DNA of 64,000 bases from Minisyncoccota bacterium (GCA_016927565.1 JAFGMK010000006.1:37942-101941), one strand, 5' to 3'; positions 9,487-29,122 are shown, counted from the stretch's first letter. Numbers and translations: made by a program. Notes: a model not told the origin generated them from the sequence alone.

Positions 9487-10178
9487 CTTATCAATCTCTT
9501 TCTCACTGCCAAAGTTAAATATTGCCAGCCATCCTGAAAAGCCCTTAATTTACTTTTCCCCAATCTTTGATCATAGCTAATTTTCATCTGACCCCAACGG
9601 CATTTTAAATAATGAATCGCCTCAATCTTTATCTCATGACTAAAAAAGTATTGATTAGATCTTACTTTTAATTTTTGCCAAAGATTCCTTTGAATCAGGA
9701 ACATTCCTGACAAAGAATCATTAAGGCGGACTTTATAAATCAGGCGGAAATGCCAAGTTAAGAGCAGATTCCCAATCCGCTTAACCAACTGCATCGTCTT
9801 TAAAAACAGATAGTTTGAACCAAAACGGTCAGCCACCAAGAATTCTAATTTTCCTTTCAGGGAATAATCTAGCAACCGGGGAATTTCCTCAACCGGATAA
9901 GTCCCGTCAGCATCACAAACGACCATGATTTCTCCGCGGGAATCATTAAGGCCTCTTTTAATGGCATAACCATAACCCTGATTTTTTTCCCTTAAAACCC
10001 TAGCTCCTAATCGCCGGGCAACTTCGGCAGTTTTATCGGTTGAGTTGTTATCAACGACAACAATCTCGGTTTCAAAACCTCTGGCTCGGATCTCTTTAAC
10101 AGGAACAGCGGGAATAATCTTTTCTACACCCTGTTCCTCATTGTAGGCTGGTAAAATAAGAGAAAAATAATGTTTCAC
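9483..10178 (-). CDS. GT2 family glycosyltransferase, polyprenol-phosphate sugar synthase-like (DPM1/ArnC-like)
   Basis: LILPAYNEE...VVVDNNSTDKT...VCDADG are GT-A DxD-family motifs. 231 aa. Confidence 0.8.
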   Translation of the reverse strand: MKHYFSLILPAYNEEQGVEKIIPAVPVKEIRARGFETEIVVVDNNSTDKTAEVARRLGARVLREKNQGYGYAIKRGLNDSRGEIMVVCDADGTYPVEEIPRLLDYSLKGKLEFLVADRFGSNYLFLKTMQLVKRIGNLLLTWHFRLIYKVRLNDSLSGMFLIQRNLWQKLKVRSNQYFFSHEIKIEAIHYLKCRWGQMKISYDQRLGKSKLRAFQDGWQYLTLAVRKRLIR

Positions 10179-10201
10179 ACCATTATTATATAATACTTGA
10201 A

Positions 10202-11536
10202 ATGCCTAAATCAGTTCTGGCAATTTTTTATCAGGATTACTGGCGAGATGAAGCAATCAGTCTTCTGATTGCTTCCAAGAATCTGAAAGAATTCTTTCCT
10301 TTTGCTGCCAAAGATATTCATCCGCCACTTTACTACCTTTTACTTCACTTTTGGATTAAGTTATTTAGCGAATCCGAGTTTGCAACACGAAGTCTTTCCC
10401 TTATCTGCCATCTTTTATTAGTCTTTTTTTCCTACCAAATATTAAAACACCTTTTAAAAAATCGTTTAATCTCACTCTGGATTACTCCATCAATCTTGCT
10501 AAACCCCTTTTTAATCAAGTATGCCGCTGAAGCCAGAGCCTATTCTCTCTTTGGTTTCTTGGTTATTGCCGCTATCTTTTTTTATCTCAAGAAGCGTTTT
10601 TTTCTAAGTTCGTTTTTTTGGGCTTTGACAATCATCACTCACAATATCAGCCTTCTTTACCTGACATCCTTGGCTATTTTTTGGTTCTGGCAAAACAAGA
10701 AGCGTTTCCGGAAAAAGATCCGTCAGTTTACTCTTATATTTGGCCTCCCTATTTTAGTTTTCCTACTCCGGATCAAGTTTATCTGGTCCCAATCTGCACG
10801 AATTGGGCAGAGGTTTTGGATCAAACCGGCTCCTTTCCCAATTTTTCTAACTGCTTTCAAGGCTTTTTTCCAAGGTCAACTATACAGCCCCAAAACCAGG
10901 ATGTTAAACTATAGATTGGCCCTAGCCCTGATTTTAATCAGCTTTTTTTATTGGATTATTAAAAGAATTTATCCTCAGAAAACCAGGAAAAGCCCTGATC
11001 AGCAAAGTCTAATTTTAGTTTTCCTATCCTTTGCTCCTCTTGTCTTAATTGAAAGTATTTCTCTTATCTGGATCCCTCTTTATCATGAAAAGGTGGTCAT
11101 TCCCAGTCTTCCCCTTTTTATTATCTGGATTGCCTGCGCTCTCTTAAAGTTAGGAAAGATCAGCAGAAGCCTTAAGCTTTCCCTTGTCTTCCTGGCTCTA
11201 ATTTATAATTTTACTTTGGCTTTTGGAGCCAAAGAAACTCTAGCCGCTACCTCCAAACCCCCAATTAGACAGGCTGTTAATCAAATTCTTTTAAAGGCAA
11301 AAGAAACAGACATTATTATCCCTGAGTCGCCGCTCAATTTTCCCGAAACTAAGTATTACCTTAATAAGTCGGCCAAAAAACTACCAGTGCTTGCTTTCTT
11401 TAAAGAACCAGAAGAGTCCTTCCATGTTTATTATATTTGGATCGAGCCAGAGGAAAGAATTTATAAATATCCCCAAGATCAAAATGTCTGGATTATTACC
11501 CTTGACGGGAAATATTTCTTAAGAGGCAATCAGTAA
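10202..11536 (+). CDS. GT39/GT83-like (ArnT/PMT family) membrane glycosyltransferase
   Basis: The first periplasmic loop has WRDEAISLL and KDIHPPLYYLLL, which match the DE...HPPL signature of the ArnT/PMT family. Multi-TM, 444 aa. Confidence 0.6.
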   Translation: MPKSVLAIFYQDYWRDEAISLLIASKNLKEFFPFAAKDIHPPLYYLLLHFWIKLFSESEFATRSLSLICHLLLVFFSYQILKHLLKNRLISLWITPSILLNPFLIKYAAEARAYSLFGFLVIAAIFFYLKKRFFLSSFFWALTIITHNISLLYLTSLAIFWFWQNKKRFRKKIRQFTLIFGLPILVFLLRIKFIWSQSARIGQRFWIKPAPFPIFLTAFKAFFQGQLYSPKTRMLNYRLALALILISFFYWIIKRIYPQKTRKSPDQQSLILVFLSFAPLVLIESISLIWIPLYHEKVVIPSLPLFIIWIACALLKLGKISRSLKLSLVFLALIYNFTLAFGAKETLAATSKPPIRQAVNQILLKAKETDIIIPESPLNFPETKYYLNKSAKKLPVLAFFKEPEESFHVYYIWIEPEERIYKYPQDQNVWIITLDGKYFLRGNQ

Positions 11537-13603: not shown

Positions 13604-14224
13604 TCATTTAAGAACATATCTTTCTATCTGAGAAACTACTAGCTCAGGTGTTAAACGAGTGGTGTCAATTGTCTCTGAATGAAAGTGTTTCCTGCCTATT
13701 TCGACAATTACTGCCTCCATAGCCATAAATCTTTCAGGCGCAGCAACAATCATTAAATCTCTCTCTGTGACTAGATCTGTTCTATCTTTACGCCTTTGCT
13801 CAAGCCGCTGCAGCCTTGCTTCTAGACTAGCAGTTAAAATAAACGAGTGATCAAAGAGGGGGTGTTGCGGCAACATATCAACTAGAACCTCGGGAATTCT
13901 TGGCGTTCCAGATACCGTGTGGAAAGCTAACGATCTTAAAATTATTGTCGAGTCCTGAATTGTATTAACTTCGGGCCATGTAAACATTTCCAAATCTGCC
14001 ATTAAAGCAACCGCATATAGGTTTCCTAAAATTTCTGGACTGAAGGAATCACTTCTACCAATCGAATCGGCTAATAATCGGATTATGTTTTCTTCTTGGC
14101 AAATACTTTTTCTTTGGACTATCCAGGGAGCTGATTGTCGGGAGGCAAAACTATTAGCTATTAAAGATTTACCAGCAAGATCCATTCCATCTAAATGGAT
14201 GAATTTAGCTCTTTCGGAATTCAT
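13604..14224 (-). CDS. thymidylate/dNMP kinase-like P-loop protein
   Basis: FIHLDGMDLAGKS fits GxxxxGKS in the position of the dTMP kinase P-loop. The LID-like and DR.x regions are weakly alignable to Tmk. The assignment is tentative. Confidence 0.45.
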   Translation of the reverse strand: MNSERAKFIHLDGMDLAGKSLIANSFASRQSAPWIVQRKSICQEENIIRLLADSIGRSDSFSPEILGNLYAVALMADLEMFTWPEVNTIQDSTIILRSLAFHTVSGTPRIPEVLVDMLPQHPLFDHSFILTASLEARLQRLEQRRKDRTDLVTERDLMIVAAPERFMAMEAVIVEIGRKHFHSETIDTTRLTPELVVSQIERYVLK

Positions 14225-14609
14225 TTAAGAAAACTTTGGTTTGGGGCACAATTTTTGAGGGCAACTTATTAAGAGAAAACCAGCGAACCTCCACTGTCTT
14301 ATCTAATGGCTTCGGGTTTCCGCTTAGATAATAAGATCTAAATCTTAGGTATATTTTTGCCTTTTTTTGATTAACTTCGGAAGATACTAGAAAATGATTC
14401 TTGATTCGAATATTGGTTTCCTCTAAAACTTCACGCGCCAAGCCGGAAGTTATTGTCTTATCCTTAAGCTCTATTTTCCCTCCGGGAATAACCCAAAAAC
14501 CAGGAAAAGTATCTTCATCTTGGCCACGCTTAACAAGTAAGACCTGGTCATCCTTAAAAATAGCGGTTGAAACATTAATTACAAATTGGGTGGCTTTTTT
14601 GTTTTTCAT
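14205..14609 (-). CDS. NUDIX hydrolase
   Basis: Nudix box GGKIELKDKTITSGLAREVLEETNI matches Gx5Ex7REUxEExGU. Confidence 0.75.
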   Translation of the reverse strand: MKNKKATQFVINVSTAIFKDDQVLLVKRGQDEDTFPGFWVIPGGKIELKDKTITSGLAREVLEETNIRIKNHFLVSSEVNQKKAKIYLRFRSYYLSGNPKPLDKTVEVRWFSLNKLPSKIVPQTKVFLNEFRKS

Positions 14610-15409: not shown

Positions 15410-16039
15410 TTATTTTTTCATGCCTAGGAGCCGGTCCTTATCGATAGCGGCGTCATTTTCCATTAATTCACTCCACCACCACTCATTGGGATTGCTTTCT
15501 TTCATCAGGTAAACAATTTTTTTGGCAGAAGCAGTATTCATAGCCGGAACACGATCGTTAAAGTCAGACTCAAACCATTTTTGGGCCAGTTTATGTCCTT
15601 GCCACATCATTACCCACTCGGTGTAGATCTGGGTCAGGCTGTCGGCGTCTTTGACAATCTTGGCAATTCTGGTTTCTTGTCTTTCATACTCATCAAAAAG
15701 GGATTTGATGTTTTGGCCAAATTTGATACCTTCGACCTGTTTAGTTAAGGCTTTGTTTTCATCGATTTTGACATAATGCTTGGCGATAAAACCGATTTCG
15801 CCGGTCCTGGCTTCAACCAGATCATGGAAAAGAGCCATGGAAACACACTTGAGGCCGTCTTTATGGGATAAACCCTCCATCTGGGATAAAACATAAGCAA
15901 TAACACTACATTGATAGGAATGAGAAGCAACCGTATCAAAGGCATTACCCAGATGATACTGATGTGATCTTGGCATCAGCATTAAAAGACCCGATTGCTG
16001 AATCAAATGGAAAATTTTGGTTATCTCACTCTTAGTCAT
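15410..16039 (-). CDS. HD-domain phosphohydrolase, YfbR-like 5'-deoxynucleotidase family
   Basis: HSYQCSVIAYVL...ALFHDLVEARTGE is an H...HD metal-binding signature with YfbR-like spacing. Confidence 0.65.
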   Translation of the reverse strand: MTKSEITKIFHLIQQSGLLMLMPRSHQYHLGNAFDTVASHSYQCSVIAYVLSQMEGLSHKDGLKCVSMALFHDLVEARTGEIGFIAKHYVKIDENKALTKQVEGIKFGQNIKSLFDEYERQETRIAKIVKDADSLTQIYTEWVMMWQGHKLAQKWFESDFNDRVPAMNTASAKKIVYLMKESNPNEWWWSELMENDAAIDKDRLLGMKK

Positions 16040-16647: not shown

Positions 16648-17187
16648 ATGGAGTATAACACAGAAATAGCCTTTAGCAAAGACTTATGGGGTGAAATCGT
16701 TGAGGTTGAGTTTTGCCCCCAAGAAACACTTCCTTCTGAGGAGGAACTTCCTTTAACTGCAGTTTCTTGCATTGCTGTTACCGATGATAATAGAAGGGTT
16801 GTTTTGGCTAAAGTGCCCCGAGGTTGTGATCTGCCGGGTGGCCATATTGAAAGCGGCGAGAAGCCGGAGGACGCTCTAGCCCGTGAGCTAGAGGAAGAGA
16901 CCGGAGCTCGGTTTCAGGATAAACCGCACCTTATTGGGATTCGGAGAATGACTAAGAAGGCTGAGACTGTTCGAGTTCAACAATATCCGTTGGTAAGCGG
17001 GATTGCGGTATACATAGGAAGAGTAGTGTTGGATAAAAGCTTTGTTCCTCAGAAAGAATCATCGGAGAGAATTTTGGTCGATGTTCAAGAGATTGATCAG
17101 ATTCATCACCACTGGAGCCGGCAAGAGCAGGAGATTTTTGCTTATGCTAAAGAACGCTACCCTGATTACTTTCCCGACAAAATTTAA
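16648..17187 (+). CDS. NUDIX hydrolase
   Basis: Nudix box GGHIESGEKPEDALARELEEETGA. 179 aa. Converges on the 1368-aa gene with a 4-nt overlap. Confidence 0.75.
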   Translation: MEYNTEIAFSKDLWGEIVEVEFCPQETLPSEEELPLTAVSCIAVTDDNRRVVLAKVPRGCDLPGGHIESGEKPEDALARELEEETGARFQDKPHLIGIRRMTKKAETVRVQQYPLVSGIAVYIGRVVLDKSFVPQKESSERILVDVQEIDQIHHHWSRQEQEIFAYAKERYPDYFPDKI

Positions 17188-20100
17188 AGGCTGAATTTTT
17201 CTTTAATTATTGCAGCTGCTTTTTTGGCTCCTTCTAGACTTATTCGGGGTGATATCTCCGACATACGAGCAGCGTAGGTCGCTTGATCAGTAAGAGCTTG
17301 CTGAATCCCAGCATCAAGCCGGTCATTGTCTAGTCTGGAAAGAGGCAGGTTTTGGCCTAAGCCATGCTGTTCAACCAAAGCAGCATTATATTGCTGATCA
17401 GCGTTGGTAGTAATGGTAATAATCCCCCCCCTGCCCCTTTTCATAAAGGGATAAAGAGTACCGCTTCCACCCTGGCAGAGCAAGACATCGGCGTGGCTGG
17501 CGAGTTCAGGAAGATTGGCAAATTTTACGGGAACAAAGTTTTCCGGCAAATCAGCTGGTAATTCGGCATCGGCAGTAGTAACCATTATCATTGCCTCCGG
17601 TCTTTTTTGGGCAACTGCAAATAAGGCTTGATAAAGTTTGGGCTCTTTAATGCTCCCAAAACTACCAAAAATGATTTTTTTACCTTCTAATTTAGCCTGA
17701 GCAAGCTTAGCAACCGCTTCTTTGGTTGCCCCTTCGTCAACATACTGATTAATAATGGTTTCTGGCTGAATTGAACCGACGTAAGCCACCTCATTACCAT
17801 TGACCAGCTCTCGAAGCCGGGGGTCAAGATTAAAATCAGGGCCGACTCCCTGATTGACGAAAGCTTCATTATCGGCAATTATGGTCAGATCGGCAGCTTC
17901 CATATGTTGAAACCAGCTTGGATTATCGGTAGGCGGCTCGCCGATGTATTGTCTATGCGCTTCTTGATAAACCTGACGCAACTTAGGATCAAGCGGACGG
18001 TAGTACTTATCAGCCAATCTTTCTGCCTCAGGACCAAGTTTATGAATAAACGCCTCGGAGGTAAAACCAACATTGCTAAGATTGGTGATTGACACCGTGG
18101 GAACACCAGCCATTTTAGCAGCCATTAAAAGAGGGACATTATGATCTGAAAGAACAAATGGTGGCGGATTTTCTTCCAAGCGCTGGGCAATACGGACAAC
18201 ATTCCCGGCCATTTCTTTAACACTAAATTCTCCTTTGATTAAATGACCAGGATGGTAAAAATAATCATCAGATCTCTCAACTGTTACAGGCTTGCCTGGA
18301 GTTTCAAATCCCCGGCCAAGGTCAAAGACTTGCCGGCCACTTTCAGACCCACACATATTAGTTGGCACTCCGGCTCGGGCAAGTTCTAAAGCGACCTCAA
18401 GAGGTCGACCAGTATGAGCTGATACTCCAGGCAGATAACCCACCTCAACTGGCCTTGCCTGGCTTTTTTGTTCGCTAGCGATTGGGACTTCCGGATCTTC
18501 TTTTTCTTTTTTAGCCTGACTAAGCCTTTTCTCCTCGGCTCCCAACTCGTAGGCTGCATCAACTAAACTTGGCCAGACTTGATAGGTCCTAAGATAGCGC
18601 CGAACCCCCTTGCGGACTGACCGAATCTCTTTTGGCAAGGGCTGATTTTCGAGATCTTTCTCAACAGCTTCAATTGCTCCCTCAGGAAAGGCGTGAAGAA
18701 AACTTTCTAACTCATCAATAACCTGATCAGGCTCCGCAGAATCTATTTGCCTGGCAAATTCTACTTGTGCATCCAACAAACCTCTGAGTCTTTTTATTTC
18801 TTCAAGTTTTGCATGATTGGCCTCAAATGTTCGGATCGAAGCTTGGAGAGACTTGTCATCAGCAGGGGCAATTCCTAAAGCCTGCTTGGCTTCATTTTGA
18901 AGGCTAGGGCTACCATCAATAGCTTTAGAAATTTTGAATTGTTCCCTGGCGTAATTGTTGCTAAAAGCACCAACCATTTCGGCACCAAAAGCATCACCAC
19001 CACCCTGACGGGCAGCTCGCTGGTGCATTAGAGGCCTTTCTCGGCGGATAACCCGATTTGGATCAGCTGCGGTAGCTGCTTGAGCTCGAATAGCGCCGCT
19101 AAGATTATAGTCAAATATGCCCCCTAATGGAGTCGGGATTCCCTTAATCGCCTCACCTGAAAAAGTAATATTACCAAGATCAAGCTTACTGGCTTCTTGC
19201 CAATCTAAACCTTCTTTAAAATGGCGTTCCTCAGTCCACAGGGCGGCAATTGGCTGGCGGCGGACAGCCGCTTCAAGTATTTGAGGGAGCAATCGGTAGG
19301 CTTCGCTGGTTGACACCTGACGGAAGGCACCAGTTTCAGGATCAAAAATATTATAAGTACTAAAAGCGCCGCTATTTCTTTCAGTCATAATCTGAGTGGT
19401 TAGTTCCAGAGTATCCTTTACTAAAGAAATGGGGTTGCCGGTATGGCCAGTGTATCGGCCAATAGTGACTTGAGTTTCTGGATCTTCAAACCAGGCCGCT
19501 CTTTCAGCCAAGATATCGTGCTGATCTGTTCTTATAGTTCCTTCTTCGGTTCTAGTAAGAGTCCGATAGCGCTGATCGTCTTCATTAATGGTGATCGTTG
19601 TTTCCTTCAAGGGAACTCCTCGTTTACCAGCCTCATACGCCGCTGCTAAATAGCCAAAATTCTGAGTGCCGGCAATGCCTCCAAGCTCAGCTAAGGGATC
19701 AGCAAATTCAAAACTTTCTAAGTCCTCTCGAAGTGGCGCCTGAAGTCGGTCTTTTAATAAAGCCCGACTAAGCCAAAATTGATATCTTCTCTGTTTTTCG
19801 GTAAGGTCAGGATCTGCTTTTAGTTCTTGGGCAACTTTTTGGGCAAGTCTTTGAGCGAACCCAGTATTTTCCCTAACTCGGTAATAGCCGACTTGATATT
19901 TTTTAGCAACTTTGGCGATCTGTCTGGCAGCTTCATCATCCCAAGAATCATCAATAATAAAAACACCCACCTCACCTTGGTAAGCACTTTTTTGTCTAGA
20001 CTCAGCAAAATCTTCCAAAAATCGGTCAATTAATTCCGGGTTTTGTAAAGACTTGATACCAACCATTTGGAGCTTAGTCTCCCGAGGCTCTTCCTCCATT

Positions 20101-21290
20101 CGTTCTAAGTAACCTTCAATAAATGCTTTTACCCTGTCTGGTTCATGCATTTGAGGATCTGGCAGGGGCGGACTTTCGTACTTTTTCTTAAGAGCTTCGA
20201 CCTGATCTGGTCTGGCCGCCCACTTTTTTTTCCGAGGCTCGGTCCAATATTGGTCATACAAATACCATTCCTCAGCTCGTCTTTGCCAGGGAACTACTTC
20301 TTTGAGAAGGCGAATGCCCCTGGTTTCTTCACCAGCGACAAAGCCAACAAATTTATCAACGGCTGCTTTTACACCACCCGTTTTAATAGAATCATAATCA
20401 TCAGTCGCATCCTCAATCCCCCTAATGGCCACCTCATTTAGCAAAACAAGGCTTTGGGCTGAAAGACCCTTAATGGCAGTTTTTTCAGTAGGGTTTTTTC
20501 TGGTGATTACCGGGATATATTGACCTGAATCTTGATCTAAAACAATATCAGTGGCTGAGTTATAAACACCACTATATAAAGCTTCAACTAACTGGAGGCG
20601 GTTTTTGTAGACATTGAGGTGAAAATCGGGGTCACTACCTTCTTCAAGAATTCCGTGAGTATTTCTGGTTCCATTTGGCCACAGATCAACAAACTCCCCC
20701 TCTATCTCTGCTTCGGGATTAACATCATTTATCAGGCCAGTTAATCCCCGGTAGCTTAGGCCAACAGCGCTTTGACTATCCGCCAAAATTACTTTTTTAG
20801 CTTTGGCGACTCCCATTTGTCTTAAATAGCCTCGATAACGGTCATAAAAATCCGGGCCATGAGCAGTTCCCCTAACCAAGGGATTAAATTGGCCGTTGTA
20901 ATGGAGATATCTTGTTCTGCCGGGATCAATTTCTTGATATTCAGCTACTTTTTCCCTGAGTTTTTGGGCAGCAATATGAATCGGCAAACCATCTCTGGCC
21001 AAGGTCAAAGCAAGACTATCTGGTTCGTTTTTGAGCTTGGTTAATACTTTATCGGCTAAGAGGATATATACCGGAGCAACAACTTCCCTTGTCTGGGAGT
21101 AAACCTCTTTTGCCAAGGCGCGGAAGCGCTCCTCTTGTTCTGGTGGAACCTTCCTTTCTTTGACCAGGTGATCGAGATACTGACCAAGCCTATCCGAATC
21201 CTGCTCGTGTTCCTGGCCTGTTTCTTGGTCGGCAATTGGTTTGCTTGGCTGATCCTCGATTGGCTTAACCCCGTTAGCACCTTCTCCCAT
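17184..21290 (-). CDS. 1368-aa multidomain protein: unknown N-terminal ~880 aa with a possible GT-A-like segment, plus a C-terminal GT1-family (MGT/UGT-like, GT-B fold) glycosyltransferase domain
   Basis: The C-terminal ~480 aa has a GT1 N-lobe motif (YLPGVSAHTGRPLEVALELARAGVP) and a C-lobe nucleotide-sugar motif (HADVLLCQGGSGTLYPFMKRGRGGIITITTNADQQYNAALVEQHGLG). A mid-protein segment (VGVFIIDDSWDDEAARQIAKVAKKYQVGYYRVRENTGFA) weakly resembles a GT2 N-terminal region. The protein is rich in A/E/R/Q/G/P, unlike the neighbouring proteins. Confidence 0.65.
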   Translation of the reverse strand: MGEGANGVKPIEDQPSKPIADQETGQEHEQDSDRLGQYLDHLVKERKVPPEQEERFRALAKEVYSQTREVVAPVYILLADKVLTKLKNEPDSLALTLARDGLPIHIAAQKLREKVAEYQEIDPGRTRYLHYNGQFNPLVRGTAHGPDFYDRYRGYLRQMGVAKAKKVILADSQSAVGLSYRGLTGLINDVNPEAEIEGEFVDLWPNGTRNTHGILEEGSDPDFHLNVYKNRLQLVEALYSGVYNSATDIVLDQDSGQYIPVITRKNPTEKTAIKGLSAQSLVLLNEVAIRGIEDATDDYDSIKTGGVKAAVDKFVGFVAGEETRGIRLLKEVVPWQRRAEEWYLYDQYWTEPRKKKWAARPDQVEALKKKYESPPLPDPQMHEPDRVKAFIEGYLERMEEEPRETKLQMVGIKSLQNPELIDRFLEDFAESRQKSAYQGEVGVFIIDDSWDDEAARQIAKVAKKYQVGYYRVRENTGFAQRLAQKVAQELKADPDLTEKQRRYQFWLSRALLKDRLQAPLREDLESFEFADPLAELGGIAGTQNFGYLAAAYEAGKRGVPLKETTITINEDDQRYRTLTRTEEGTIRTDQHDILAERAAWFEDPETQVTIGRYTGHTGNPISLVKDTLELTTQIMTERNSGAFSTYNIFDPETGAFRQVSTSEAYRLLPQILEAAVRRQPIAALWTEERHFKEGLDWQEASKLDLGNITFSGEAIKGIPTPLGGIFDYNLSGAIRAQAATAADPNRVIRRERPLMHQRAARQGGGDAFGAEMVGAFSNNYAREQFKISKAIDGSPSLQNEAKQALGIAPADDKSLQASIRTFEANHAKLEEIKRLRGLLDAQVEFARQIDSAEPDQVIDELESFLHAFPEGAIEAVEKDLENQPLPKEIRSVRKGVRRYLRTYQVWPSLVDAAYELGAEEKRLSQAKKEKEDPEVPIASEQKSQARPVEVGYLPGVSAHTGRPLEVALELARAGVPTNMCGSESGRQVFDLGRGFETPGKPVTVERSDDYFYHPGHLIKGEFSVKEMAGNVVRIAQRLEENPPPFVLSDHNVPLLMAAKMAGVPTVSITNLSNVGFTSEAFIHKLGPEAERLADKYYRPLDPKLRQVYQEAHRQYIGEPPTDNPSWFQHMEAADLTIIADNEAFVNQGVGPDFNLDPRLRELVNGNEVAYVGSIQPETIINQYVDEGATKEAVAKLAQAKLEGKKIIFGSFGSIKEPKLYQALFAVAQKRPEAMIMVTTADAELPADLPENFVPVKFANLPELASHADVLLCQGGSGTLYPFMKRGRGGIITITTNADQQYNAALVEQHGLGQNLPLSRLDNDRLDAGIQQALTDQATYAARMSEISPRISLEGAKKAAAIIKEKFSL

Positions 21291-21671: not shown

Positions 21672-22418
21672 ATGAACTCTAAACCCCAAAAGGAGGTTTC
21701 TAAGTCAGGAATACCAATTTTGCGCCATCAGCAAGCAGCTAAACCGCCTAAAAAAACTTCCTATCCTACCGAAGAATACCTCAAAGTTTTGGATAAACAC
21801 ATTAAAAAATATATTGGGGAGGCAAAAACTGTTTTTCATGAATTGATTTCGGAGTATGTCCACTTGGATGTTTACTTTATTGAGGCTAGTAAAAAAAGAA
21901 ATTTTCATACCCTAGTGACCGCAGGAATGAGCCTTTTGCCAATGAATGTTCCTCCCGGATTAGAAAGTCATCGCTTTGCCGAACTTTTAATTTGTCTACC
22001 GGCTAGCTGGCCTTTGAGTAAAGAAGCTTTTAAAAAAGAAGCTAATTACTGGCCGGTAAGACAACTTAAGATGTTGGCACGCCTGCCCCATGTTTACCGA
22101 ACCTTTCTTTACATTGGTCATACTGTGCCCAATGGTAACCCTCCCAAGCCTCTTGCTAATAATACCCGCTTTGATTGTCTGCTTTTACTCCCACCAATTC
22201 TTTTCCCCAAAGAATTCAGCTCTCTTAAAATCAACAAAGATAAAACAGTTCATTTTTACGCTCTAATCCCTCTCTACCCTGAAGAAACTGCCTTTAAACT
22301 AGACCAGGGAACGTCTAAGTTATTCCGGAAGTTGGACCAGGCCCGAGTTACCGAGTTGGTAGATATTAACAGACCCAGTTTGATTAGCAAAAAAAATAAC
22401 AAAGGGCAGGCAGCATAA
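21672..22418 (+). CDS. SUFU-like (suppressor-of-fused family) domain protein
   Basis: FHTLVTAGMSLLPMNVPPG, WPVRQLKMLARLPHVY, GHTVPNGNPPKPLANNTRFDCLLLLPP and FYALIPLYPEE match the conserved blocks of bacterial SUFU-family proteins. These are recalled from memory and were not searched. Confidence 0.5.
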   Translation: MNSKPQKEVSKSGIPILRHQQAAKPPKKTSYPTEEYLKVLDKHIKKYIGEAKTVFHELISEYVHLDVYFIEASKKRNFHTLVTAGMSLLPMNVPPGLESHRFAELLICLPASWPLSKEAFKKEANYWPVRQLKMLARLPHVYRTFLYIGHTVPNGNPPKPLANNTRFDCLLLLPPILFPKEFSSLKINKDKTVHFYALIPLYPEETAFKLDQGTSKLFRKLDQARVTELVDINRPSLISKKNNKGQAA

Positions 22419-25234: not shown

Positions 25235-25798
25235 ATGGAAGACTCCCGTTTAAACAAGGTTCGCGATTTTTACAAAAATCACCACCGATTACCCTCTTAC
25301 TCGGAAATGCTAAGATTGTTTAAACTGGCTTCTAAGAATGCGATTTATAAAATTGTTAAAAAATGGCAGGAAACCGGCCTGGTAGAAAAAATCAACCATA
25401 AACTGGCTCCCACCAAAGATTTTTTCCGCCTGCCATTTTTTGGTTTGGTCAAGGCCGGCTTCCCCACCGGCGCTGACGAAGACCACCGCTTCTTAAGCCT
25501 GGAAGATTATTTAATCGATAAACCCCAAGCCTCTTTCTTACTAACGGTTGACGGCGATTCTCTCTCCGGCATCGGCATCTTACCGGGAGACTTGGCCATC
25601 ATCGAGAAAAGAACCGAAGCCCGGACAGAAGAGATTGTCTTAGCTTTAATCGACAATCATTGGAGCCTAAAAATTCTCCGGCGGCAAAACGGCCGGCTCC
25701 GGCTGGAATCAGCCAATGAAAAGTATCCCCCCCTCTACCCCAAAGAAGATTTACAGATCTTCGGAGTTTTAAAAGGAGTAATTAGAAAAATTAAATAA
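25235..25798 (+). CDS. lexA: LexA-like repressor (wHTH plus S24 peptidase)
   Basis: N-terminal wHTH. VKAG/FP carries the Ala-Gly cleavage site, GDSLSGIGI carries the Ser nucleophile, and LKILRR carries the Lys. Confidence 0.7.
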   Translation: MEDSRLNKVRDFYKNHHRLPSYSEMLRLFKLASKNAIYKIVKKWQETGLVEKINHKLAPTKDFFRLPFFGLVKAGFPTGADEDHRFLSLEDYLIDKPQASFLLTVDGDSLSGIGILPGDLAIIEKRTEARTEEIVLALIDNHWSLKILRRQNGRLRLESANEKYPPLYPKEDLQIFGVLKGVIRKIK

Positions 25799-25803
25799 AA
25801 TCC

Positions 25804-27036
25804 ATGTTTCAAATCCATCCCTGGCCCAACGCCATTCTTCATCTTGACGCTGACGCCTTCTTTGCCTCAGTGATGCAGGCCGTCAACCCGAATTTAAAAG
25901 GAAGAGCAGTGATTGTCGGCAGGGAAAGAGGCATCGCAACGGCAGTTTCTTATGAGGCTAGAGGATGGGGTGTTAAACGGGGAATGAGACTGAACGAGAT
26001 CAAAAGGACTTGCCCCCATTGCCTTTTGATAGACTCGGATTATGAACTTTATCAGCTTTTTTCCCAAAAAATATTCAAACTTTTAAGAGAATTTTCTCCT
26101 GCGATTGAAGAATATTCAATTGACGAAGGCTTTGCTGATCTTAAAGGCCTGAGACGGCCACTTCGGGCCAGTTACCGTCAAATCGGGCAAGAAATCAAAG
26201 AAAAAATCGAAAAATCACTGGGAATTACAGTTTCAGTCGGCATTTCTTTGACAAAATCGCTCGCTAAACTGGCTTCCTCTTTCCAAAAACCCTCCGGCCT
26301 GACCGTAGTTGACGGGTTAGGTCTGGAAAAATTCCTTTCTCAAATCCCTTTAAAAAAAGTTTGGGGAATCGGCGAACAAACCAGCGCCTACCTGGAGAAG
26401 CTGGGATTGATCAGCGCCCTGGATTTAGCCCTTAAACCGGAAAGTTTTATCAGCGCTTATTTGATTAAACCCCATCTTGAAATCTGGCATGAGCTTCGGG
26501 GAGAACAAGTTTACCTTTTAAACACCCACCCCAAAACAACCTATCAGAGTATCTTAAAAAGCGAGACTTTCCGGCCGGCCACTAATGAACCCCATCTGCT
26601 TTGGGCCAGATTGTTAAATAATATTGAAGCGGCCTTTACCAAGGCCCGGCACTATCAATACTCGGTTGGCCAGGTGTCTCTTTTTTTAAAGAGTCAGGAC
26701 TTTATTTATCATACCAGCCAAGTCCGGCTTCTGGAAAAAGCCGCTTATCCTTTTTTAATCAGAAAGGAATTAAAAAAAAGTTTTAACGGCCTTCTTTCCC
26801 GGCAAACTCTTTACCGGACTACCGGTTGTTGCTTATCAAATCTTCAAGATAACCGTCAGTCTCAATTGAGTTTTTTCCCCCCAAGTCAGGCCAAACTTAA
26901 TAAAGCAGTTAAATTTTATCCGCTATATGAAAACAAAAAAATTGATTTTGGCACTAGTCTTTTTGATCCTCAACTCGGAAAAAGAAGAAAAAAACAACCC
27001 CGGACCCGAATCCCTTTTTTATCTCTTCCCGCTTGA
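25804..27036 (+). CDS. Y-family DNA polymerase (DinB/UmuC-like)
   Basis: ILHLDADAFFASV is the Y-family catalytic motif. 410 aa. Starts 5 nt after the lexA stop, so the two form an operon. Confidence 0.8.
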   Translation: MFQIHPWPNAILHLDADAFFASVMQAVNPNLKGRAVIVGRERGIATAVSYEARGWGVKRGMRLNEIKRTCPHCLLIDSDYELYQLFSQKIFKLLREFSPAIEEYSIDEGFADLKGLRRPLRASYRQIGQEIKEKIEKSLGITVSVGISLTKSLAKLASSFQKPSGLTVVDGLGLEKFLSQIPLKKVWGIGEQTSAYLEKLGLISALDLALKPESFISAYLIKPHLEIWHELRGEQVYLLNTHPKTTYQSILKSETFRPATNEPHLLWARLLNNIEAAFTKARHYQYSVGQVSLFLKSQDFIYHTSQVRLLEKAAYPFLIRKELKKSFNGLLSRQTLYRTTGCCLSNLQDNRQSQLSFFPPSQAKLNKAVKFYPLYENKKIDFGTSLFDPQLGKRRKKQPRTRIPFLSLPA

Positions 27037-27081: not shown

Positions 27082-28095
27082 TTATTTCTGATTCAAAGCC
27101 CGACGGATAATTCCCACCAGACTGTTAAAGTGGCATTGGTCATAATCGCTTCGGTAAAAACCGCCTTTAAACATGGGGGCTAATTTTTGCAAACTGGAAA
27201 GAACTAAACCAATCTTTAGGGCCCGATCAAACAAATCATCCTGAATCCGTTTTGATTTTTTAACTTCTTTAATTAATTTTTTTCCCAGCTTGATATTTTC
27301 CCAAGCCCGGGTATAAAAACTAGCCACATCCAAGCCCCAATCAAGAAGGGGCAAACAAGACCAATAGGCGCTTTCCCAATCAAGCAAAACCGCTCTTTTG
27401 GTCCCAAAGAAGACATTATTGGGAGCCAGGTCGCCGTGAATTAAAACGCCCGGGGCTTGTTTGGCTTTGAAGAATGATTCTTTAAACTTTTTAAAAAAAA
27501 GAATGACAGTTTGGCCATCAGATTTCAGCCAATTCAAGTCGGAAACTTCTAGAGCCGGATAAAGAGTTTCAAGGTGCTCCCGAATCCGACTTTCGACTTC
27601 GTTGATAATGACTGATTTTTGCTTATTAATCAAAAGATAGGGTTTTAGCTTAATGGGAAGGTCTGACTGTTTAATTTGCCAAAGTTGACGAAGAGCATGG
27701 CCGAGAGCAATCATCTTTTTGGGTTTAAGCGAGGAGATGTTTTCTTCCCGACAAATTAGTCCCTGATTATCTCTAAAATACTGACCAACGTACCAAAAAA
27801 GGTTTTTTATTTGGCCGGAGTCAAAGATCCGCCGGGCCAGATTACTCTCCCGGGAAAGCCATTTTTGGATTAATAATTCTTTTTGGAACCTTCGCAATAG
27901 GCCGGGCTTATCACTAAAAGCGCCTTTGAAAAATAATTTTTTACCCTCGGAATTGATAAGTGGAAAATAAACAAAGCGGGGGGTCTCTTTAGTCAAACAC
28001 CGGCGAAGCTCAATTCGATCGGGCTGCCAGCTTCTTCTTTCAGTTAAAGAAAGAATCACTTTTAATCTTTGTTGATACTCGGTTTCAGATAACAT
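27082..28095 (-). CDS. phosphotransferase family protein (APH/choline-kinase-like kinase fold)
   Basis: The catalytic loop region VLIHGDLAPNNVFF...LLDWESAYW matches the HGDxxxxN...D motif of PF01636-like kinases. Confidence 0.55.
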   Translation of the reverse strand: MLSETEYQQRLKVILSLTERRSWQPDRIELRRCLTKETPRFVYFPLINSEGKKLFFKGAFSDKPGLLRRFQKELLIQKWLSRESNLARRIFDSGQIKNLFWYVGQYFRDNQGLICREENISSLKPKKMIALGHALRQLWQIKQSDLPIKLKPYLLINKQKSVIINEVESRIREHLETLYPALEVSDLNWLKSDGQTVILFFKKFKESFFKAKQAPGVLIHGDLAPNNVFFGTKRAVLLDWESAYWSCLPLLDWGLDVASFYTRAWENIKLGKKLIKEVKKSKRIQDDLFDRALKIGLVLSSLQKLAPMFKGGFYRSDYDQCHFNSLVGIIRRALNQK

Positions 28096-28114
28096 TTTTT
28101 TAAGACAAAATCTC

Positions 28115-29122
28115 CTAAACTAAAGCGGCTCTTAACATCTTGATCAGGGTATTAAAATGCCGCCGGTCATAGTCTGTTTGACAGATCCCAAACTTAAACA
28201 TCGGGGCAATTTTTTGCAGAATGGAAAAGACCAAACCAATGGTCAGGCTTTTGGGGAAAAAAGGCTCTTTTGCCCAAGGCGATTTTTTTACTTCGGCGAT
28301 TAACTCTTTTCCCAACTCAGGCCGTAACCAGGCCCGGGTGGAAAAATTAGCCACATCAATGCCCAAAGCCAAAAGGAGATTATCGGTCCAACAAACCCAT
28401 TCCCAATCAAAAATAACCAGCTTATTTTCTTTAAAAAAAACATTGTTCGGCGCCAGGTCGCCATGGACTAAAACTCCCCGGCCATTCTGAAACTTGACGA
28501 TCTCTTTTTTTAGGCTTTTAAAAAAGCCTAAGATTGCTTTTTCATCTGCCTCGCTCCAATCCAGTTTAGTTTTACCAAAAGCTCCTCTTAGGGTTATCAG
28601 ATAACGCCGCGTCTTGGTGATTAATCTTTCAAAGGTCTTAATATTTTTCGGGGCTGATGATAACTCTTTAAAAAGATTCCGGGGGATTTGACTTTGTTTA
28701 ATTTGCCACAGTTTTTTTATCTCCACCCCCAGAGCGCGCATGTGTGCCAACGTCAAAAGGGAAATATCCTCATCCAAACAAACAATACCATTCTTACCCG
28801 AATAATAAGGACCAATATACCAAAAAACCCTGCCTTCTTGGGAAAAATCAGCTACAGGCCTAACCGGCCCGCCTTGCCTGGCTAACCAAACCTGAGCTGC
28901 CATTTCCTTCCTGAGGTTGTTACCAAGAGACTGGCCGCCAATCAAACAGCCTTTATAAAAAAATTCTTTTCCGGCAGAGTCGGTGAAAGGAAAGTAAAGA
29001 AAGCGGGGCTTTTCCTTTTTAAGAACTTTATTAACTTGAGAATAATTTATCTGCCAACCTTTTTTTTGAGCTAAGTCAATCAAAAAGTCGAGGTTTTTTT
29101 GCTGATTCTTTTGGGAAAGCAT
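28115..29122 (-). CDS. phosphotransferase family protein (APH-like), tandem paralogue of the 27082-28095 gene
   Basis: VLVHGDLAPNNVFF...IFDWEWVCW. Same length and overall collinearity as its neighbour. Confidence 0.55.
   Translation of the reverse strand: MLSQKNQQKNLDFLIDLAQKKGWQINYSQVNKVLKKEKPRFLYFPFTDSAGKEFFYKGCLIGGQSLGNNLRKEMAAQVWLARQGGPVRPVADFSQEGRVFWYIGPYYSGKNGIVCLDEDISLLTLAHMRALGVEIKKLWQIKQSQIPRNLFKELSSAPKNIKTFERLITKTRRYLITLRGAFGKTKLDWSEADEKAILGFFKSLKKEIVKFQNGRGVLVHGDLAPNNVFFKENKLVIFDWEWVCWTDNLLLALGIDVANFSTRAWLRPELGKELIAEVKKSPWAKEPFFPKSLTIGLVFSILQKIAPMFKFGICQTDYDRRHFNTLIKMLRAALV

What the first reader, a model, noticed from the sequence alone, without database searches (positions are those of the whole stretch)
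17184..21290. 1368-aa protein: C-terminal GT1 (macrolide/UDP-glycosyltransferase-like GT-B) fused to an ~880-aa uncharacterised N-terminal region
The last ~480 aa carry the GT1 N-lobe motif PGVSAHTGRPLEVALELARAGVP. They also carry the C-lobe donor-binding motif HADVLLCQGGSGTLYPFMKRGRGGIITITTNADQQYNAALVEQHGLG.

A mid-protein stretch (VGVFIIDDSWDDEAARQIAKVAKKYQVGYYRVRENTGFA) weakly resembles the start of a GT2/GT-A domain. The protein may therefore hold two glycosyltransferase modules. This second call is tentative.

GT1 enzymes usually glycosylate small molecules such as antibiotics, lipids and natural products. Fused to a large unknown domain inside a putative island, the protein could be a glycosylating effector or toxin, a self-resistance enzyme, or a modifier of surface structures. 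No signal peptide or TM helix is evident.
Basis: partly seen in the sequence, partly recalled or inferred. Interest (0 to 1): 0.75.

Follow-up and report, generated by a model that had tools for sequence, protein, structure and literature searches.

The report
Three-module glycosyltransferase in a CPR bacterium
This 1368-residue protein from a Candidatus Pacebacteria genome joins three sugar-transferring modules of three different folds (phosphoribosyltransferase-like, GT-A and GT-B), a very rare combination that probably builds a ribose-containing glycan or glycoside whose acceptor is still unknown.

Summary
The ORF is real: 17184-21290 on the minus strand, 1368 aa, identical to a hypothetical protein of a Candidatus Pacebacteria MAG. 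All quoted motifs are present.

The C-terminal ~425 aa are a divergent GT1 GT-B enzyme. Profiles hit the C-lobe, and hhalign to OleD covers both lobes (94.6%).

The "uncharacterised" 880 aa split into two separable modules.
- Module B (aa ~375-921) is a GT-A fold with DDS and DXD motifs. Its nearest structures are GT75 mutases and GT2 synthases. It has no sequence match to any Pfam or PDB family.

The "island" is not supported.

Best reading: a soluble multi-enzyme making one PRPP-dependent and two NDP-sugar-dependent transfers. The acceptor (polymer or small molecule) is unresolved.

The full architecture occurs in only two proteins known to these databases. It is a new variant of a known kind.

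The parts
17184..21290 (-). Whole ORF, 1368 aa plus stop codon (stop at 17184-17186). Identical to MAG protein JW991_00805 of Candidatus Pacebacteria.
21219..21290 (-). aa 1-24: acidic leader, probably disordered. No signal peptide.
   Evidence: pLDDT below 50 for residues 1-24; sequence
20211..21218 (-). Module A, aa ~25-360: PRTase-like alpha/beta core flanked by long helices. Resembles the glycan phosphoribosyltransferase (gPRT / CriT) fold.
20988..21002 (-). LARDG (aa 97-101). R99 and D100 are invariant. Candidate equivalent of CriT loop-1 R679-D680.
   Evidence: alignments A3/A5; CriT residues from PMC10299916; mapping is by topology only
20880..20900 (-). YNGQFNP (aa 131-137), the loop after core strand 2. 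N132-G133 replace the S-R that is conserved in the HAD-fused homologues (R in 12 of 12, S in 11 of 12).
   Evidence: on alignment A5
20751..20789 (-). ILADSQSAVGLSY (aa 168-180): PRPP-loop-like motif with a single acidic residue. D171 and G177 are invariant.
   Evidence: In the family profile this region aligns with the PRPP loops of genuine PRTases. It lies within the stretch matched to 7shg_A.
20568..20588 (-). VEALYSG (aa 235-241). E236 and G241 are invariant. E236 is a candidate catalytic base (compare CriT E874).
   Evidence: mapping by order of secondary structure only
20169..20210 (-). Linker, aa 361-374. This is the domain boundary: homologues with a different N-terminal domain begin to match here.
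18528..20168 (-). Module B, aa ~375-921: GT-A fold with a helical insertion (aa ~478-560) and a C-terminal helical bundle. An unclassified family.
19935..19970 (-). VGVFIIDDSWDD (aa 441-452): strand beta2 followed by DDS, the nucleotide-binding motif of GT-A enzymes.
19566..19598 (-). TITINEDDQRY (aa 565-575): strand beta4 followed by the DXD motif. D572 is nearly invariant, and most family members read NDDD.
19425..19460 (-). GRYTGHTGNPIS (aa 611-622): family-conserved G.Y.GH.G.P loop. R612 is R or K across the family.
18984..19028 (-). MHQRAARQGGGDAFG (aa 755-769). H756-x-R758-x-x-R761 is conserved across the family. It resembles the MtdL H287-x-R289-x-x-H292 metal/diphosphate loop.
   Evidence: MtdL residues from PMC9937993; not superposed
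18528..18923 (-). aa ~790-921: helical bundle that ends module B and finishes in the conserved WP.....AY..G. Standalone module-B proteins end here.
18459..18527 (-). aa 922-944: charged, poorly conserved linker between modules B and C.
17187..18458 (-). Module C, aa ~945-1368: divergent GT1 (GT-B) glycosyltransferase.
18363..18431 (-). PGVSAHTGRPLEVALELARAGVP (aa 954-976): N-lobe Gly/His loop. H959 aligns with H20 of OleD.
   Evidence: OleD sequence verified; invariant in A4/A7
18126..18149 (-). SDHNVPLL (aa 1048-1055). D1049 is invariant and begins the segment that aligns with OleD '[22 protein letters not shown]'.
17355..17495 (-). HADVLLCQGGSGT...NADQQYNA...HGLG (aa 1266-1312): C-lobe NDP-sugar-binding signature (GGSGT and DQ).

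Best explanation
The gene encodes a soluble, cytoplasmic multi-enzyme made of three independent transferase modules that act in succession on one acceptor.

- Module A is a PRTase-like glycan phosphoribosyltransferase. It binds PRPP and transfers ribofuranose-5-phosphate to an acceptor hydroxyl.
- Module B is a new GT-A family with DDS and DXD motifs and a probable His-bound divalent metal. It transfers a sugar from an NDP-sugar.
- Module C is a GT1-type inverting GT-B enzyme with a His959/Asp1049 pair and GGSGT...DQ donor motifs. It transfers a second sugar from an NDP-sugar.

The product would be a ribofuranose(-phosphate)-containing oligosaccharide or repeat-unit glycan. No HAD phosphoribose phosphatase accompanies module A. 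The 5-phosphate is therefore either kept in the product or removed by an unlinked enzyme.

Shown: the three folds, their separability, their co-occurrence, and the conserved motifs. Inferred: donors, order of action, acceptor and product.
For: Modularity:
- An exhaustive phmmer search of aa 1-900 found 52 relatives. These resolve into module A alone or placed after a HAD domain, module B alone, and B fused to the GT1 module.
- In L003 a standalone module-A gene (100% identical to P0007) lies 59 bp from a B-C gene and is transcribed divergently from it. This is an independent link between A and B-C.

Module A:
- The AF2 model is confident (pLDDT 87.7).
- Thirteen homologues carry HAD immediately N-terminal to module A. 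This is the PRP-gPRT architecture of every characterised enzyme (PMC11127046; PMC12096443).
- The family profile with its HAD part hits 7shg_A at E 3.4e-7. The best stretch lies in the gPRT part and corresponds to window aa 144-268.
- The PRPP-loop region aligns with the PRPP loops of genuine PRTases.
- R99-D100, D171, G177 and E236 are invariant. They lie in the same order and secondary-structure context as CriT R679-D680, E818 and E874.

Module B:
- AF2 pLDDT is 90.8.
- DDS follows beta2 and DXD follows beta4.
- GT2 genes lie next to B-C genes in L003 and L010.

Module C: plus hhalign to OleD at 94.6% probability, E 6.8e-8, 356 columns spanning both lobes.

Precedent: Bcs3 and Cj1432 are single polypeptides that combine a gPRT with other transferases to polymerise capsules.
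Against: - No activity was measured.
- The PRP phosphatase, present in all characterised ribofuranosyltransferases, is absent from this protein. It is also absent from the 50 window genes scanned.
- The three HAD-less sequences have N-G where the 12 HAD-fused homologues have S-R (R in 12 of 12, S in 11 of 12). That S-R is a candidate phosphate-binding pair, so the donor may not be PRPP, or module A may have changed role.
- Module-A-only profiles do not retrieve Bcs3 or 7shg by sequence.
- No residue-level structural superposition was possible with these tools.
- GT1 enzymes of the MGT/OleD type usually act on small molecules or lipids, not polysaccharides.
- The window holds no export, polymer-anchoring or capsule genes next to the ORF.
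- Gene neighbourhoods of homologues are not conserved.
Confidence: 0.5

Rival explanations
1. The enzyme belongs to small-molecule metabolism, such as a natural product, an aminocyclitol-like compound or a compatible solute, rather than glycan synthesis. A low-molecular-weight acceptor is first tagged with phosphoribose. In relatives the tag is phosphate, added by a kinase-like or PEP-utilizer enzyme. The tagged acceptor is then glycosylated by modules B and C.
For: - The GT1 module's nearest families are the macrolide, enediyne and UDP-glycosyltransferases that act on small molecules.
- The partner N-terminal to module B is interchangeable: a kinase-like domain is fused in L002 and L014, and PPDK_N plus PEP-utilizers genes lie close by in L004 (directly upstream), L008 and L015.
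- L015 couples module B to PAPS synthesis, a sulfotransferase and an amidinotransferase/ADI-like enzyme.
- L004 couples B-C to a NodU/TobZ-type carbamoyltransferase with overlapping stop and start codons.
- No transporter or polymer-binding domain is linked to the gene.
Against: - All characterised gPRT enzymes act on glycans.
- GT2 genes flank two of the B-C loci.
- The tailoring-gene contexts (L015, L008) belong to standalone module-B proteins only ~35% identical to the window's module B. They may come from different organisms and pathways.
- Sulfation and carbamoylation also occur on oligosaccharides, Nod factors being one example (general knowledge).
Confidence: 0.3
2. Module B is not a transferase. 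It is a GT75-like, metal-dependent NDP-sugar pyranose-to-furanose mutase that supplies a furanosyl donor to the fused GT1 module. The fusion would pull an unfavourable equilibrium forward.
For: - The family has an (N/E)DD(D) motif.
- It has an R/K in a G-R-Y-x-G-H loop about 40 residues after the DXD.
- It has an acidic residue at position 727.
- It has H756-x-R758-x-x-R761, which resembles MtdL H287-x-R289-x-x-H292.
- MtdL also has a core followed by a C-terminal helical domain.
Against: - Foldseek ranks GT2 synthases first and lists no GT75 entry among its top 50.
- hhalign of the module-B profile against GT75 sequences gives 0.4% probability.
- There is no Pfam RGP hit even at E 10.
- The candidate Arg is Lys in several family members, whereas R159K abolishes MtdL activity.
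- The N-terminal K(S/T)xxNPELxxRFL and DDS motifs look GT2-like.
Confidence: 0.1
3. The protein is a secreted or contact-delivered glycosylating toxin or effector, or an antibiotic-inactivating resistance enzyme, with the neighbouring SUFU-like gene acting as immunity.
For: - It is a large multidomain protein in an episymbiotic lineage.
- A SUFU-family gene lies divergently upstream at 21672-22418. SUFU-like proteins have been proposed as immunity proteins of polymorphic toxins (recalled, not tested here).
- MGT-type GT1s, APH-type kinases and PEP-utilizer (rifampin phosphotransferase-like) enzymes are all known antibiotic-modifying classes (general knowledge). Contexts.
Against: - No signal peptide, transmembrane segment or secretion-associated domain was found.
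- SUFU is divergently transcribed and is absent from the other five loci.
- The family members are housekeeping-like single genes in varied chromosomal contexts.
- The gPRT and GT-A modules have no precedent in resistance or toxin enzymes.
Confidence: 0.04

Closest known systems
Bcs3 (Haemophilus influenzae type b capsule polymerase; PDB 8a0c; PMC10299916)
   Same: - It is a single soluble polypeptide that combines a PRTase-like ribofuranosyltransferase (CriT) with a GT-B fold transferase.
- Both have helical bundles around a five-stranded PRT core.
- Both appear to have a split acidic pair in place of the PRTase DD motif (CriT D680 and E818; here D100 and D171).
   Different: - Domain order in Bcs3 is GT-B, HAD, gPRT, SH3b. 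Here it is gPRT-like, GT-A, GT-B.
- This protein has no HAD phosphatase and no SH3b polymer-binding domain.
- The GT-B in Bcs3 is a TagF-like ribitol-phosphate transferase that uses CDP-ribitol. Here it is a GT1 with an NDP-sugar signature.
- Identity is 13% and there is no direct sequence hit.
- The helical bundles are shorter here (no HB-2-sized insertion).
- This gene is not in a capsule locus.
Bipartite PRP-gPRT ribofuranosyltransferases (Thermobacillus composti 7shg; Klebsiella O4/O7 ORF5/ORF7; Campylobacter jejuni Cj1432 middle and C-terminal domains)
   Same: - The profile of module A's family hits 7shg_A at E 3.4e-7 with a stretch in the gPRT domain.
- Thirteen homologues of module A have the same HAD-then-gPRT order.
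- Cj1432 also adds a Leloir glycosyltransferase in the same polypeptide.
   Different: - The window protein and its two closest module-A relatives lack the HAD (PRP) domain that defines and was used to find this family.
- They replace the clade-conserved S-R with N-G.
- They are fused to two Leloir-type modules rather than one or none.
GT75 NDP-pyranose mutases / reversibly glycosylated polypeptides (rice UAM, MtdL; PMC9937993) and GT2 GT-A synthases (K4CP, hyaluronan synthase, PcManGT, GlfT2, TarP)
   Same: - Module B shares the GT-A Rossmann-like core with DDS and DXD motifs, plus a following core and helical region.
- Foldseek E-values are about 3e-4 to GT2 synthases.
   Different: - There is no detectable sequence relationship to either family.
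- Module B has an ~80-residue helical insertion between beta3 and beta4, and a ~130-residue C-terminal helical bundle.
- Unlike the processive GT2 synthases, it has no membrane domain.
- The GT75 catalytic Arg is not strictly conserved.
OleD / MGT-type GT1 glycosyltransferases (PDB 2iyf, 4m83; TIGR01426)
   Same: - Module C is collinear with OleD over both Rossmann lobes (hhalign 94.6%).
- The His of the N-terminal G-H loop, the 'D...A..GVP.VS' segment, GGSGT and the DQ donor motif are all present.
   Different: - Identity is 22%.
- The TIGR01426 score of 44.9 bits is far below its 260-bit cut-off.
- The N-lobe alone finds nothing in the PDB.
- At database scale, a search with module C alone returned only one related fragment.
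- Module C is always fused behind module B in the homologues retrieved through modules A and B. A search with module C alone added only one 304-aa fragment of unknown context.

Membership tests
gPRT (PRPP-dependent glycan phosphoribosyltransferase: CriT / Cj1432C / 7shg type) | PRTase-like five-stranded alpha/beta core embedded in helical bundles, distinct from ordinary type I PRTases | tested here: met
   [not shown]
gPRT | Detectable sequence homology to a characterised member | tested here: inconclusive
   The family profile that includes the HAD part hits 7shg_A at E 3.4e-7, with its best stretch in the gPRT region (window aa 144-268). Module-A-only profiles (A5, A8) and the window sequence itself do not retrieve 7shg or 8a0c.
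gPRT | Split acidic pair replacing the PRTase vicinal DD motif (CriT D680 in loop 1 plus E818 in the PRPP loop), and a glutamate base (E874) | tested here: inconclusive
   R99-D100 after core strand 1, the single acid D171 in the PRPP-like loop, and E236 are invariant in 15-21 sequences. D171 aligns with the first D of PRTase DD motifs. The correspondence to CriT residues rests on order and secondary structure only. No superposition was possible.
gPRT | HAD-family phosphoribose phosphatase (PRP) fused immediately N-terminal (bipartite Ribf-GT) | tested here: not met
   There is no HAD domain in the protein and none in the 50 window genes scanned. The feature is met in 13 homologues such as P0018, P0022 and P0024.
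gPRT | Transfer of ribofuranose-5-phosphate from PRPP to a glycan hydroxyl | not testable with these tools
   Requires an enzyme assay.
GT-A fold Leloir glycosyltransferases (GT2-like) | Rossmann-like nucleotide-binding core with an acidic motif after beta2 and DXD after beta4 | tested here: met
   [not shown]
GT-A fold Leloir glycosyltransferases (GT2-like) | Match to a curated GT-A family model (for example Pfam Glycos_transf_2) | tested here: not met
   No Pfam or NCBIfam hit to aa 366-900, even at E 10 in Pfam. No PDB sequence hit with a 33-sequence profile.
GT75 (RGP / UDP-arabinopyranose mutase / MtdL) | Sequence membership (Pfam RGP, profile similarity) | tested here: not met
   No Pfam hit. 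hhalign against AtRGP1, OsUAM2 and MtdL gives 0.4% probability (the sequences were checked against PDB chains).
GT75 | DDD motif, catalytic/autoglycosylated Arg (R158/R159), Asp260-type base, and the His287-x-Arg289-x-x-His292 metal/diphosphate loop | tested here: inconclusive
   Candidates exist: E570-D571-D572, R612 (R or K across the family), D727 (D or E) and H756-x-R758-x-x-R761. They were not placed by structural superposition. The Arg is not invariant.
GT1 (GT-B, OleD/MGT-like) | C-lobe NDP-sugar binding signature | tested here: met
   PF04101 at 1.2e-7, above its cut-off. TIGR01426 at 8e-12. PDB GT1 chains down to 3.3e-8 with a profile. GGSGT and DQ are present.
GT1 (GT-B, OleD/MGT-like) | N-lobe Rossmann domain with catalytic His, collinear with GT1 enzymes | tested here: met
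   hhalign of the 5-sequence module-C profile against OleD: 94.6%, E 6.8e-8, query 11-422 to OleD 17-399. H959 aligns with H20. The OleD sequence was verified identical to 4m83_A. Caveat: the N-lobe profile alone finds no PDB hit, and no structure model was made for this module.
MGT macrolide glycosyltransferase subfamily (TIGR01426 / NF033129) | Score above the curated subfamily cut-off | tested here: not met
   44.9 bits against a 260-bit cut-off, and 24.7 bits against 700.
Multi-enzyme capsule polymerases (Bcs3 / Cj1432 type) | Encoded in a capsule or ABC-transporter-dependent glycan locus, with a polymer-binding or membrane-association module | tested here: not met
   The neighbours are NUDIX, HD, SUFU-like and unknown genes. 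The nearest ABC transporter is 8 kb away and not in an operon with the ORF. No SH3b or other extra domain was detected.

The most novel reading that the evidence does not exclude
Module B defines a previously undescribed GT-A family whose N-terminal partner is always an enzyme that installs a phosphate-bearing group. The partner is a gPRT-like phosphoribosyltransferase in the window, L001 and L003. It is a protein-kinase-like domain in L002 and L014. It is a PPDK_N/PEP-utilizer phosphotransferase in L004, L008 and L015.

This would mark a new pathway logic. An acceptor hydroxyl is first phosphorylated or 5-phosphoribosylated, and that tag is what module B and then the GT1 module build on.

In the HAD-less clade the phosphate is never removed, or the donor is no longer PRPP given the S-R to N-G change. 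The result would be a phosphorylated ribofuranosyl glycoconjugate peculiar to Patescibacteria.
Probability: 0.15. Interest if true: 0.75.

Novelty: new variant of a known kind. Interest (0 to 1): 0.6.

Why it matters
PRPP-dependent glycan ribofuranosyltransferases were recognised only in 2022-2023, and only in capsule and O-antigen pathways of cultured bacteria. They have always been found paired with a HAD phosphatase.

This finding makes four points.
- It extends the fold to the Candidate Phyla Radiation, by structure prediction rather than by sequence.
- It shows a clade that has dropped the phosphatase.
- That clade is fused to a GT-A module that belongs to no curated family, and to a very divergent GT1.
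- As far as I could find, all three glycosyltransferase fold types have not previously been reported in one chain.

If the enzyme is active, it would point to a ribose-containing envelope polymer or metabolite in organisms whose surface chemistry is almost unknown. It would add a new GT family to the classification. It would also offer a compact one-protein catalyst for making ribofuranosyl oligosaccharides.

About 900 residues that were blank to Pfam now have testable active-site predictions.

Tried and rejected
- **Plus-strand reading of the coordinates.** It is full of stops; the gene is on the minus strand.
- **Pfam and NCBIfam on aa 1-900.** Nothing found, even at E 10 in Pfam.
- **Word-indexed homologue searches.** They returned only 2-3 relatives. 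The exhaustive HMMER search was needed to see the modules.
- **PDB sequence searches with profiles of module A (A5), module B (A1, A2) and the GT1 N-lobe (A7).** No meaningful hits.
- **A chimeric profile (HAD motif I plus module A) built to display the 7shg alignment.** It failed to retrieve 7shg and gave only weak PRPP-loop hits to PRTases.
- **hhalign of module B against GT75.** No signal.
- **AFDB50 fold search.** Not available.
- **Search of the window for relatives of genes that accompany homologues elsewhere** (HAD phosphatase, PPDK_N/PEP-utilizers, kinase-like domain, carbamoyltransferase, unknown neighbours). Only a weak GT2 match at 9483-10178.
- **Conserved NUDIX neighbour** (window and L010). 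The similarity is limited to the Nudix box, so orthology is not supported.
- **Genomic island.** Rejected: no tRNA, typical GC, housekeeping neighbours.
- **Scans of GTDB species genomes and JGI metagenomes.** They added only 2 and 4 loci, confirming rarity but giving little extra context.


Full report
**Observation.**
The coordinates 17184-21290 hold one uninterrupted ORF of 1368 codons, on the minus strand. Read on the plus strand the stretch is full of stops. The protein is identical to 'MAG: hypothetical protein JW991_00805 [Candidatus Pacebacteria bacterium]'. It is 56% identical over its whole length to a 1370-aa protein from an independent JGI metagenome. It is therefore a real gene under selection. 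No hydrophobic segment long enough for a membrane helix was found. The first ~24 residues are acidic and unstructured in the model.

**The window is ordinary chromosome, not an island.**
GC over the gene lies within the window's range, and there is no tRNA in the window. The surrounding genes are typical of a small CPR chromosome: SecDF, ComM-like Mg-chelatase, LexA-like/UmuC-like, a type IV pilus cluster, RNase J, RNase Y, MiaA, MiaB, RecX and UppP. The ORF stands alone. A NUDIX gene converges on it so that the two stop codons overlap (16648-17187, plus strand). A SUFU-family gene diverges from it upstream (21672-22418).

**C-terminal module (aa ~945-1368).**
- Pfam Glyco_tran_28_C (1.2e-7, above its cut-off), EryCIII-like_C, TIGR01426 (8e-12, far below its subfamily cut-off) and PDB GT1 chains all match aa ~1190-1365, the C-lobe. 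The PDB chains include 10zg, YjiC, UGT202A2, CalG2 and OleD.
- The N-lobe alone finds nothing in the PDB.
- A profile of the five available module-C sequences aligns with OleD over both lobes. hhalign gives 94.6% probability, E 6.8e-8 and 356 columns, with query 11-422 matched to OleD 17-399.
- H959 falls on OleD H20 in the G-H loop. 'PPFVLSDHNVPLLMAAKMAGVPTVSI' falls on OleD '[28 protein letters not shown]'.
The module is a very divergent GT1, and a database-scale search with it alone returned a single related fragment.

**The 'uncharacterised' 880 aa are two separable modules.**
Pfam and NCBIfam see nothing there. An exhaustive phmmer search of aa 1-900 against 1.84 billion representative proteins found only 52 relatives. 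Local domain mapping and Pfam scans sort them as follows.
- aa ~35-360 (module A) occurs alone (P0007, 365 aa) and at the C-terminus of ~860-930-aa proteins, directly after a HAD phosphatase domain.
- aa ~375-921 (module B) occurs alone (490-590 aa) and as the N-terminal half of ~1000-aa proteins whose C-terminal half is the same GT1 module (P0004, P0005, P0011).
- Two metagenomic loci (L002, L014) carry a different, protein-kinase-like domain in front of module B.
- The full A-B-C architecture is seen only in the window protein and P0002.
- In L003 the standalone module-A gene lies 59 bp from a B-C gene and is transcribed divergently from it. This is independent evidence that A and B-C work together.

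**Module A.**
- AlphaFold2 with a 21-sequence alignment gave pLDDT 87.7 and pTM 0.87.
- In Bcs3 the PRTase-like part is CriT. CriT transfers ribofuranose-5-phosphate from PRPP to the growing polymer. A HAD phosphatase (CrpP) then removes the 5-phosphate (PMC10299916).
- The same bipartite 'PRP-gPRT' design defines the whole enzyme family (PMC11127046; PMC11231755; Cj1432, PMC12096443).
- Thirteen homologues of module A have exactly that HAD-then-module-A order.
- A profile of these proteins hits the T. composti enzyme by sequence at E 3.4e-7. Its best stretch lies in the enzyme's gPRT region and corresponds to window residues 144-268.
- The PRPP-loop region of the profile also aligns, weakly but repeatedly, with the PRPP loops of genuine PRTases. 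D171 falls on the first Asp of their DD motif.
- R99-D100, D171, G177, E236 and G241 are invariant. They lie in the same order and secondary-structure context as CriT R679-D680, E818, the 821-825 phosphate loop and E874. This residue mapping is inference, since no superposition could be made.

**What does not fit the gPRT family.**
- The window protein, P0002 and P0007 have no HAD domain.
- None was found among the 50 window genes scanned.
- Exactly these three sequences carry N-G (aa 132-133) where the 12 HAD-fused homologues have S-R (R in all 12, S in 11).
- This S-R pair sits in the loop after core strand 2. That is the position of CriT S707-R708, which contact the pyrophosphate and the 5-phosphate.
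- Loss of the phosphatase and loss of this Arg go together.
- Several readings are possible. The 5-phosphate may be retained. It may be removed by an unlinked enzyme; an HD-domain YfbR-like phosphohydrolase lies 1.1 kb away, but that link is speculation. Or the donor may have changed.

**Module B.**
- AlphaFold2 with 33 sequences gave pLDDT 90.8 and pTM 0.92.
- The strand order is that of a GT-A fold.
  - beta1 is followed by K-S-x-x-N-P-E-L-x-x-R-F-L.
- beta2 ('VGVFII') is followed by DDS.
  - beta4 ('TTITIN') is followed by E-D-D. Most family members read NDDD, and D572 is nearly invariant.
- There is an ~80-residue helical insertion before beta4 and a ~130-residue helical bundle at the end.
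- Foldseek instead ranks GT2 synthases first at E ~3e-4.
- No sequence method links module B to any family. hhalign against GT75 gives 0.4% (the GT75 sequences were checked).
- Candidate equivalents of the GT75 catalytic set exist: R612, D727 and H756-x-R758-x-x-R761 against MtdL R159, D260 and H287-x-R289-x-x-H292 (PMC9937993). However, R612 is Lys in several members, and none of these positions could be confirmed by superposition.
- I therefore file module B as an unclassified GT-A family, most simply a DXD-dependent glycosyltransferase. The mutase reading is kept as a minority rival.

**Genomic contexts of relatives.** These are heterogeneous.
- GT2 genes flank B-C genes in L003 and L010.
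- In L004, a fused PEP-utilizers/PPDK_N phosphotransferase and a NodU/TobZ-type carbamoyltransferase sit directly upstream of B-C, with overlapping stop and start codons.
- Near standalone module B in L008 and L015 are split PPDK_N and PEP-utilizers genes. L015 adds PAPS synthase, a sulfotransferase and an ADI/amidinotransferase-like gene.
- The window has no relatives of these partners.
- The partner in front of module B is thus a gPRT-like domain, a kinase-like domain or a PEP-utilizer phosphotransferase. All of these install a phosphate-bearing group. This regularity is an inference from eight loci.
- Scans of 185,579 species genomes and of JGI metagenomes found only 2 and 4 loci. The one named organism is a Patescibacteria MAG, and another relative is from Candidatus Gottesmanbacteria. 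The family is rare, and the members with a named source are all from the CPR.

**Interpretation.**
The best-supported reading is a soluble multi-enzyme with one PRPP-type and two NDP-sugar-type transfer steps acting on a common acceptor. It resembles Bcs3 and Cj1432 but has a different module set and no phosphatase (confidence about 0.5).

Whether the acceptor is a growing glycan or a small molecule is not settled.
- For a glycan: the gPRT precedent and the neighbouring GT2 genes.
- For a small molecule (about 0.3): the GT1 type, the tailoring-enzyme contexts, and the absence of export genes.
- A mutase role for module B: about 0.1.
- A toxin or resistance role: about 0.04. These are weakly supported.

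**Novelty.**
Each fold is known, and multi-enzyme glycan synthases containing a gPRT are known. What is new:
- a gPRT-like module without its phosphatase;
- an unclassified GT-A family;
- the union of PRT-like, GT-A and GT-B modules in one chain;
- its occurrence in the CPR.

It is a new variant of a known kind.

Noticed in passing
window 16648-17187 (+) and L010 5491-5982 (-): A NUDIX hydrolase gene converges on the ORF so that the two stop codons overlap. The B-C homologue in L010 also has a convergent NUDIX gene. Similarity between the two NUDIX proteins is limited to the Nudix box. A second NUDIX gene (14205-14609) and an HD/YfbR-like phosphohydrolase gene (15410-16039) lie just beyond.
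   Followed up: partly
window 21672-22418 (+): A SUFU-family protein (PF05076, 2.2e-46) is encoded divergently upstream of the ORF. It is unusual in bacteria and has been proposed elsewhere as a toxin-immunity family. It is not found next to the homologues.
   Followed up: partly
window 27082-29122 (-): Two tandem APH-type (aminoglycoside/choline kinase-like) phosphotransferase genes of 337 and 335 aa. They are unrelated by phmmer to the kinase-like domain fused to module B in L002 and L014.
   Followed up: partly
window 6440-11536: A GT2 gene (9483-10178) overlaps two large upstream ORFs without Pfam hits (531 and 488 aa). A divergent 444-aa ORF with no hits follows. This may be a second glycan-related gene group in the window.
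   Followed up: no
window 32042-34345 (-): A 767-aa protein with GH52 / GH116 / six-hairpin glycosidase-like hits sits directly upstream of a type IV pilus cluster (pseudopilins, PilM/N/O, PilC, PilB; about 34.3-43.3 kb).
   Followed up: no
window 25235-27036 (+): A LexA-like S24 peptidase gene followed by a Y-family (ImpB/UmuC-type) polymerase gene. This looks like an SOS-mutagenesis-type pair.
   Followed up: no
window 44828-45505 (-): An IS200-like Y1 transposase gene lies between two histidine-kinase genes. It is the only mobile-element gene seen in the window, about 23 kb from the ORF.
   Followed up: no
L005 5057-21636 (also L006, L007): The HAD-plus-module-A protein P0018 (927 aa, with an uncharacterised ~290-aa N-terminal region) sits in a run of giant genes: 1602 aa, 510 aa (faint acyltransferase hit), 640 aa, and 1787 aa with an M48 peptidase domain. 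The arrangement is conserved in three assemblies.
   Followed up: no
L015 182-9378: Standalone module B is the last gene of a same-strand run: ATP-sulfurylase/APS-kinase, sulfotransferase, ADI/amidinotransferase-like, then module B. Split PPDK_N and PEP-utilizers genes precede the run. L008 has the same PPDK_N (250 aa) and PEP-utilizers (487 aa) pair near its module-B gene.
   Followed up: partly
L002 about 4130-4232: The kinase-like plus module-B gene of L002 is broken by a frameshift at the conserved ELGG|IAGTQ motif. The related L014 gene reads through the same motif without interruption. The break is probably an assembly error or a recent pseudogenisation.
   Followed up: partly
P0026 (Candidatus Gottesmanbacteria, 889 aa): Another architecture: module B followed by a ~310-aa C-terminal region that looks HD-domain-like by eye (H...HD motif). 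It has no Pfam hit at E 0.01.
   Followed up: no
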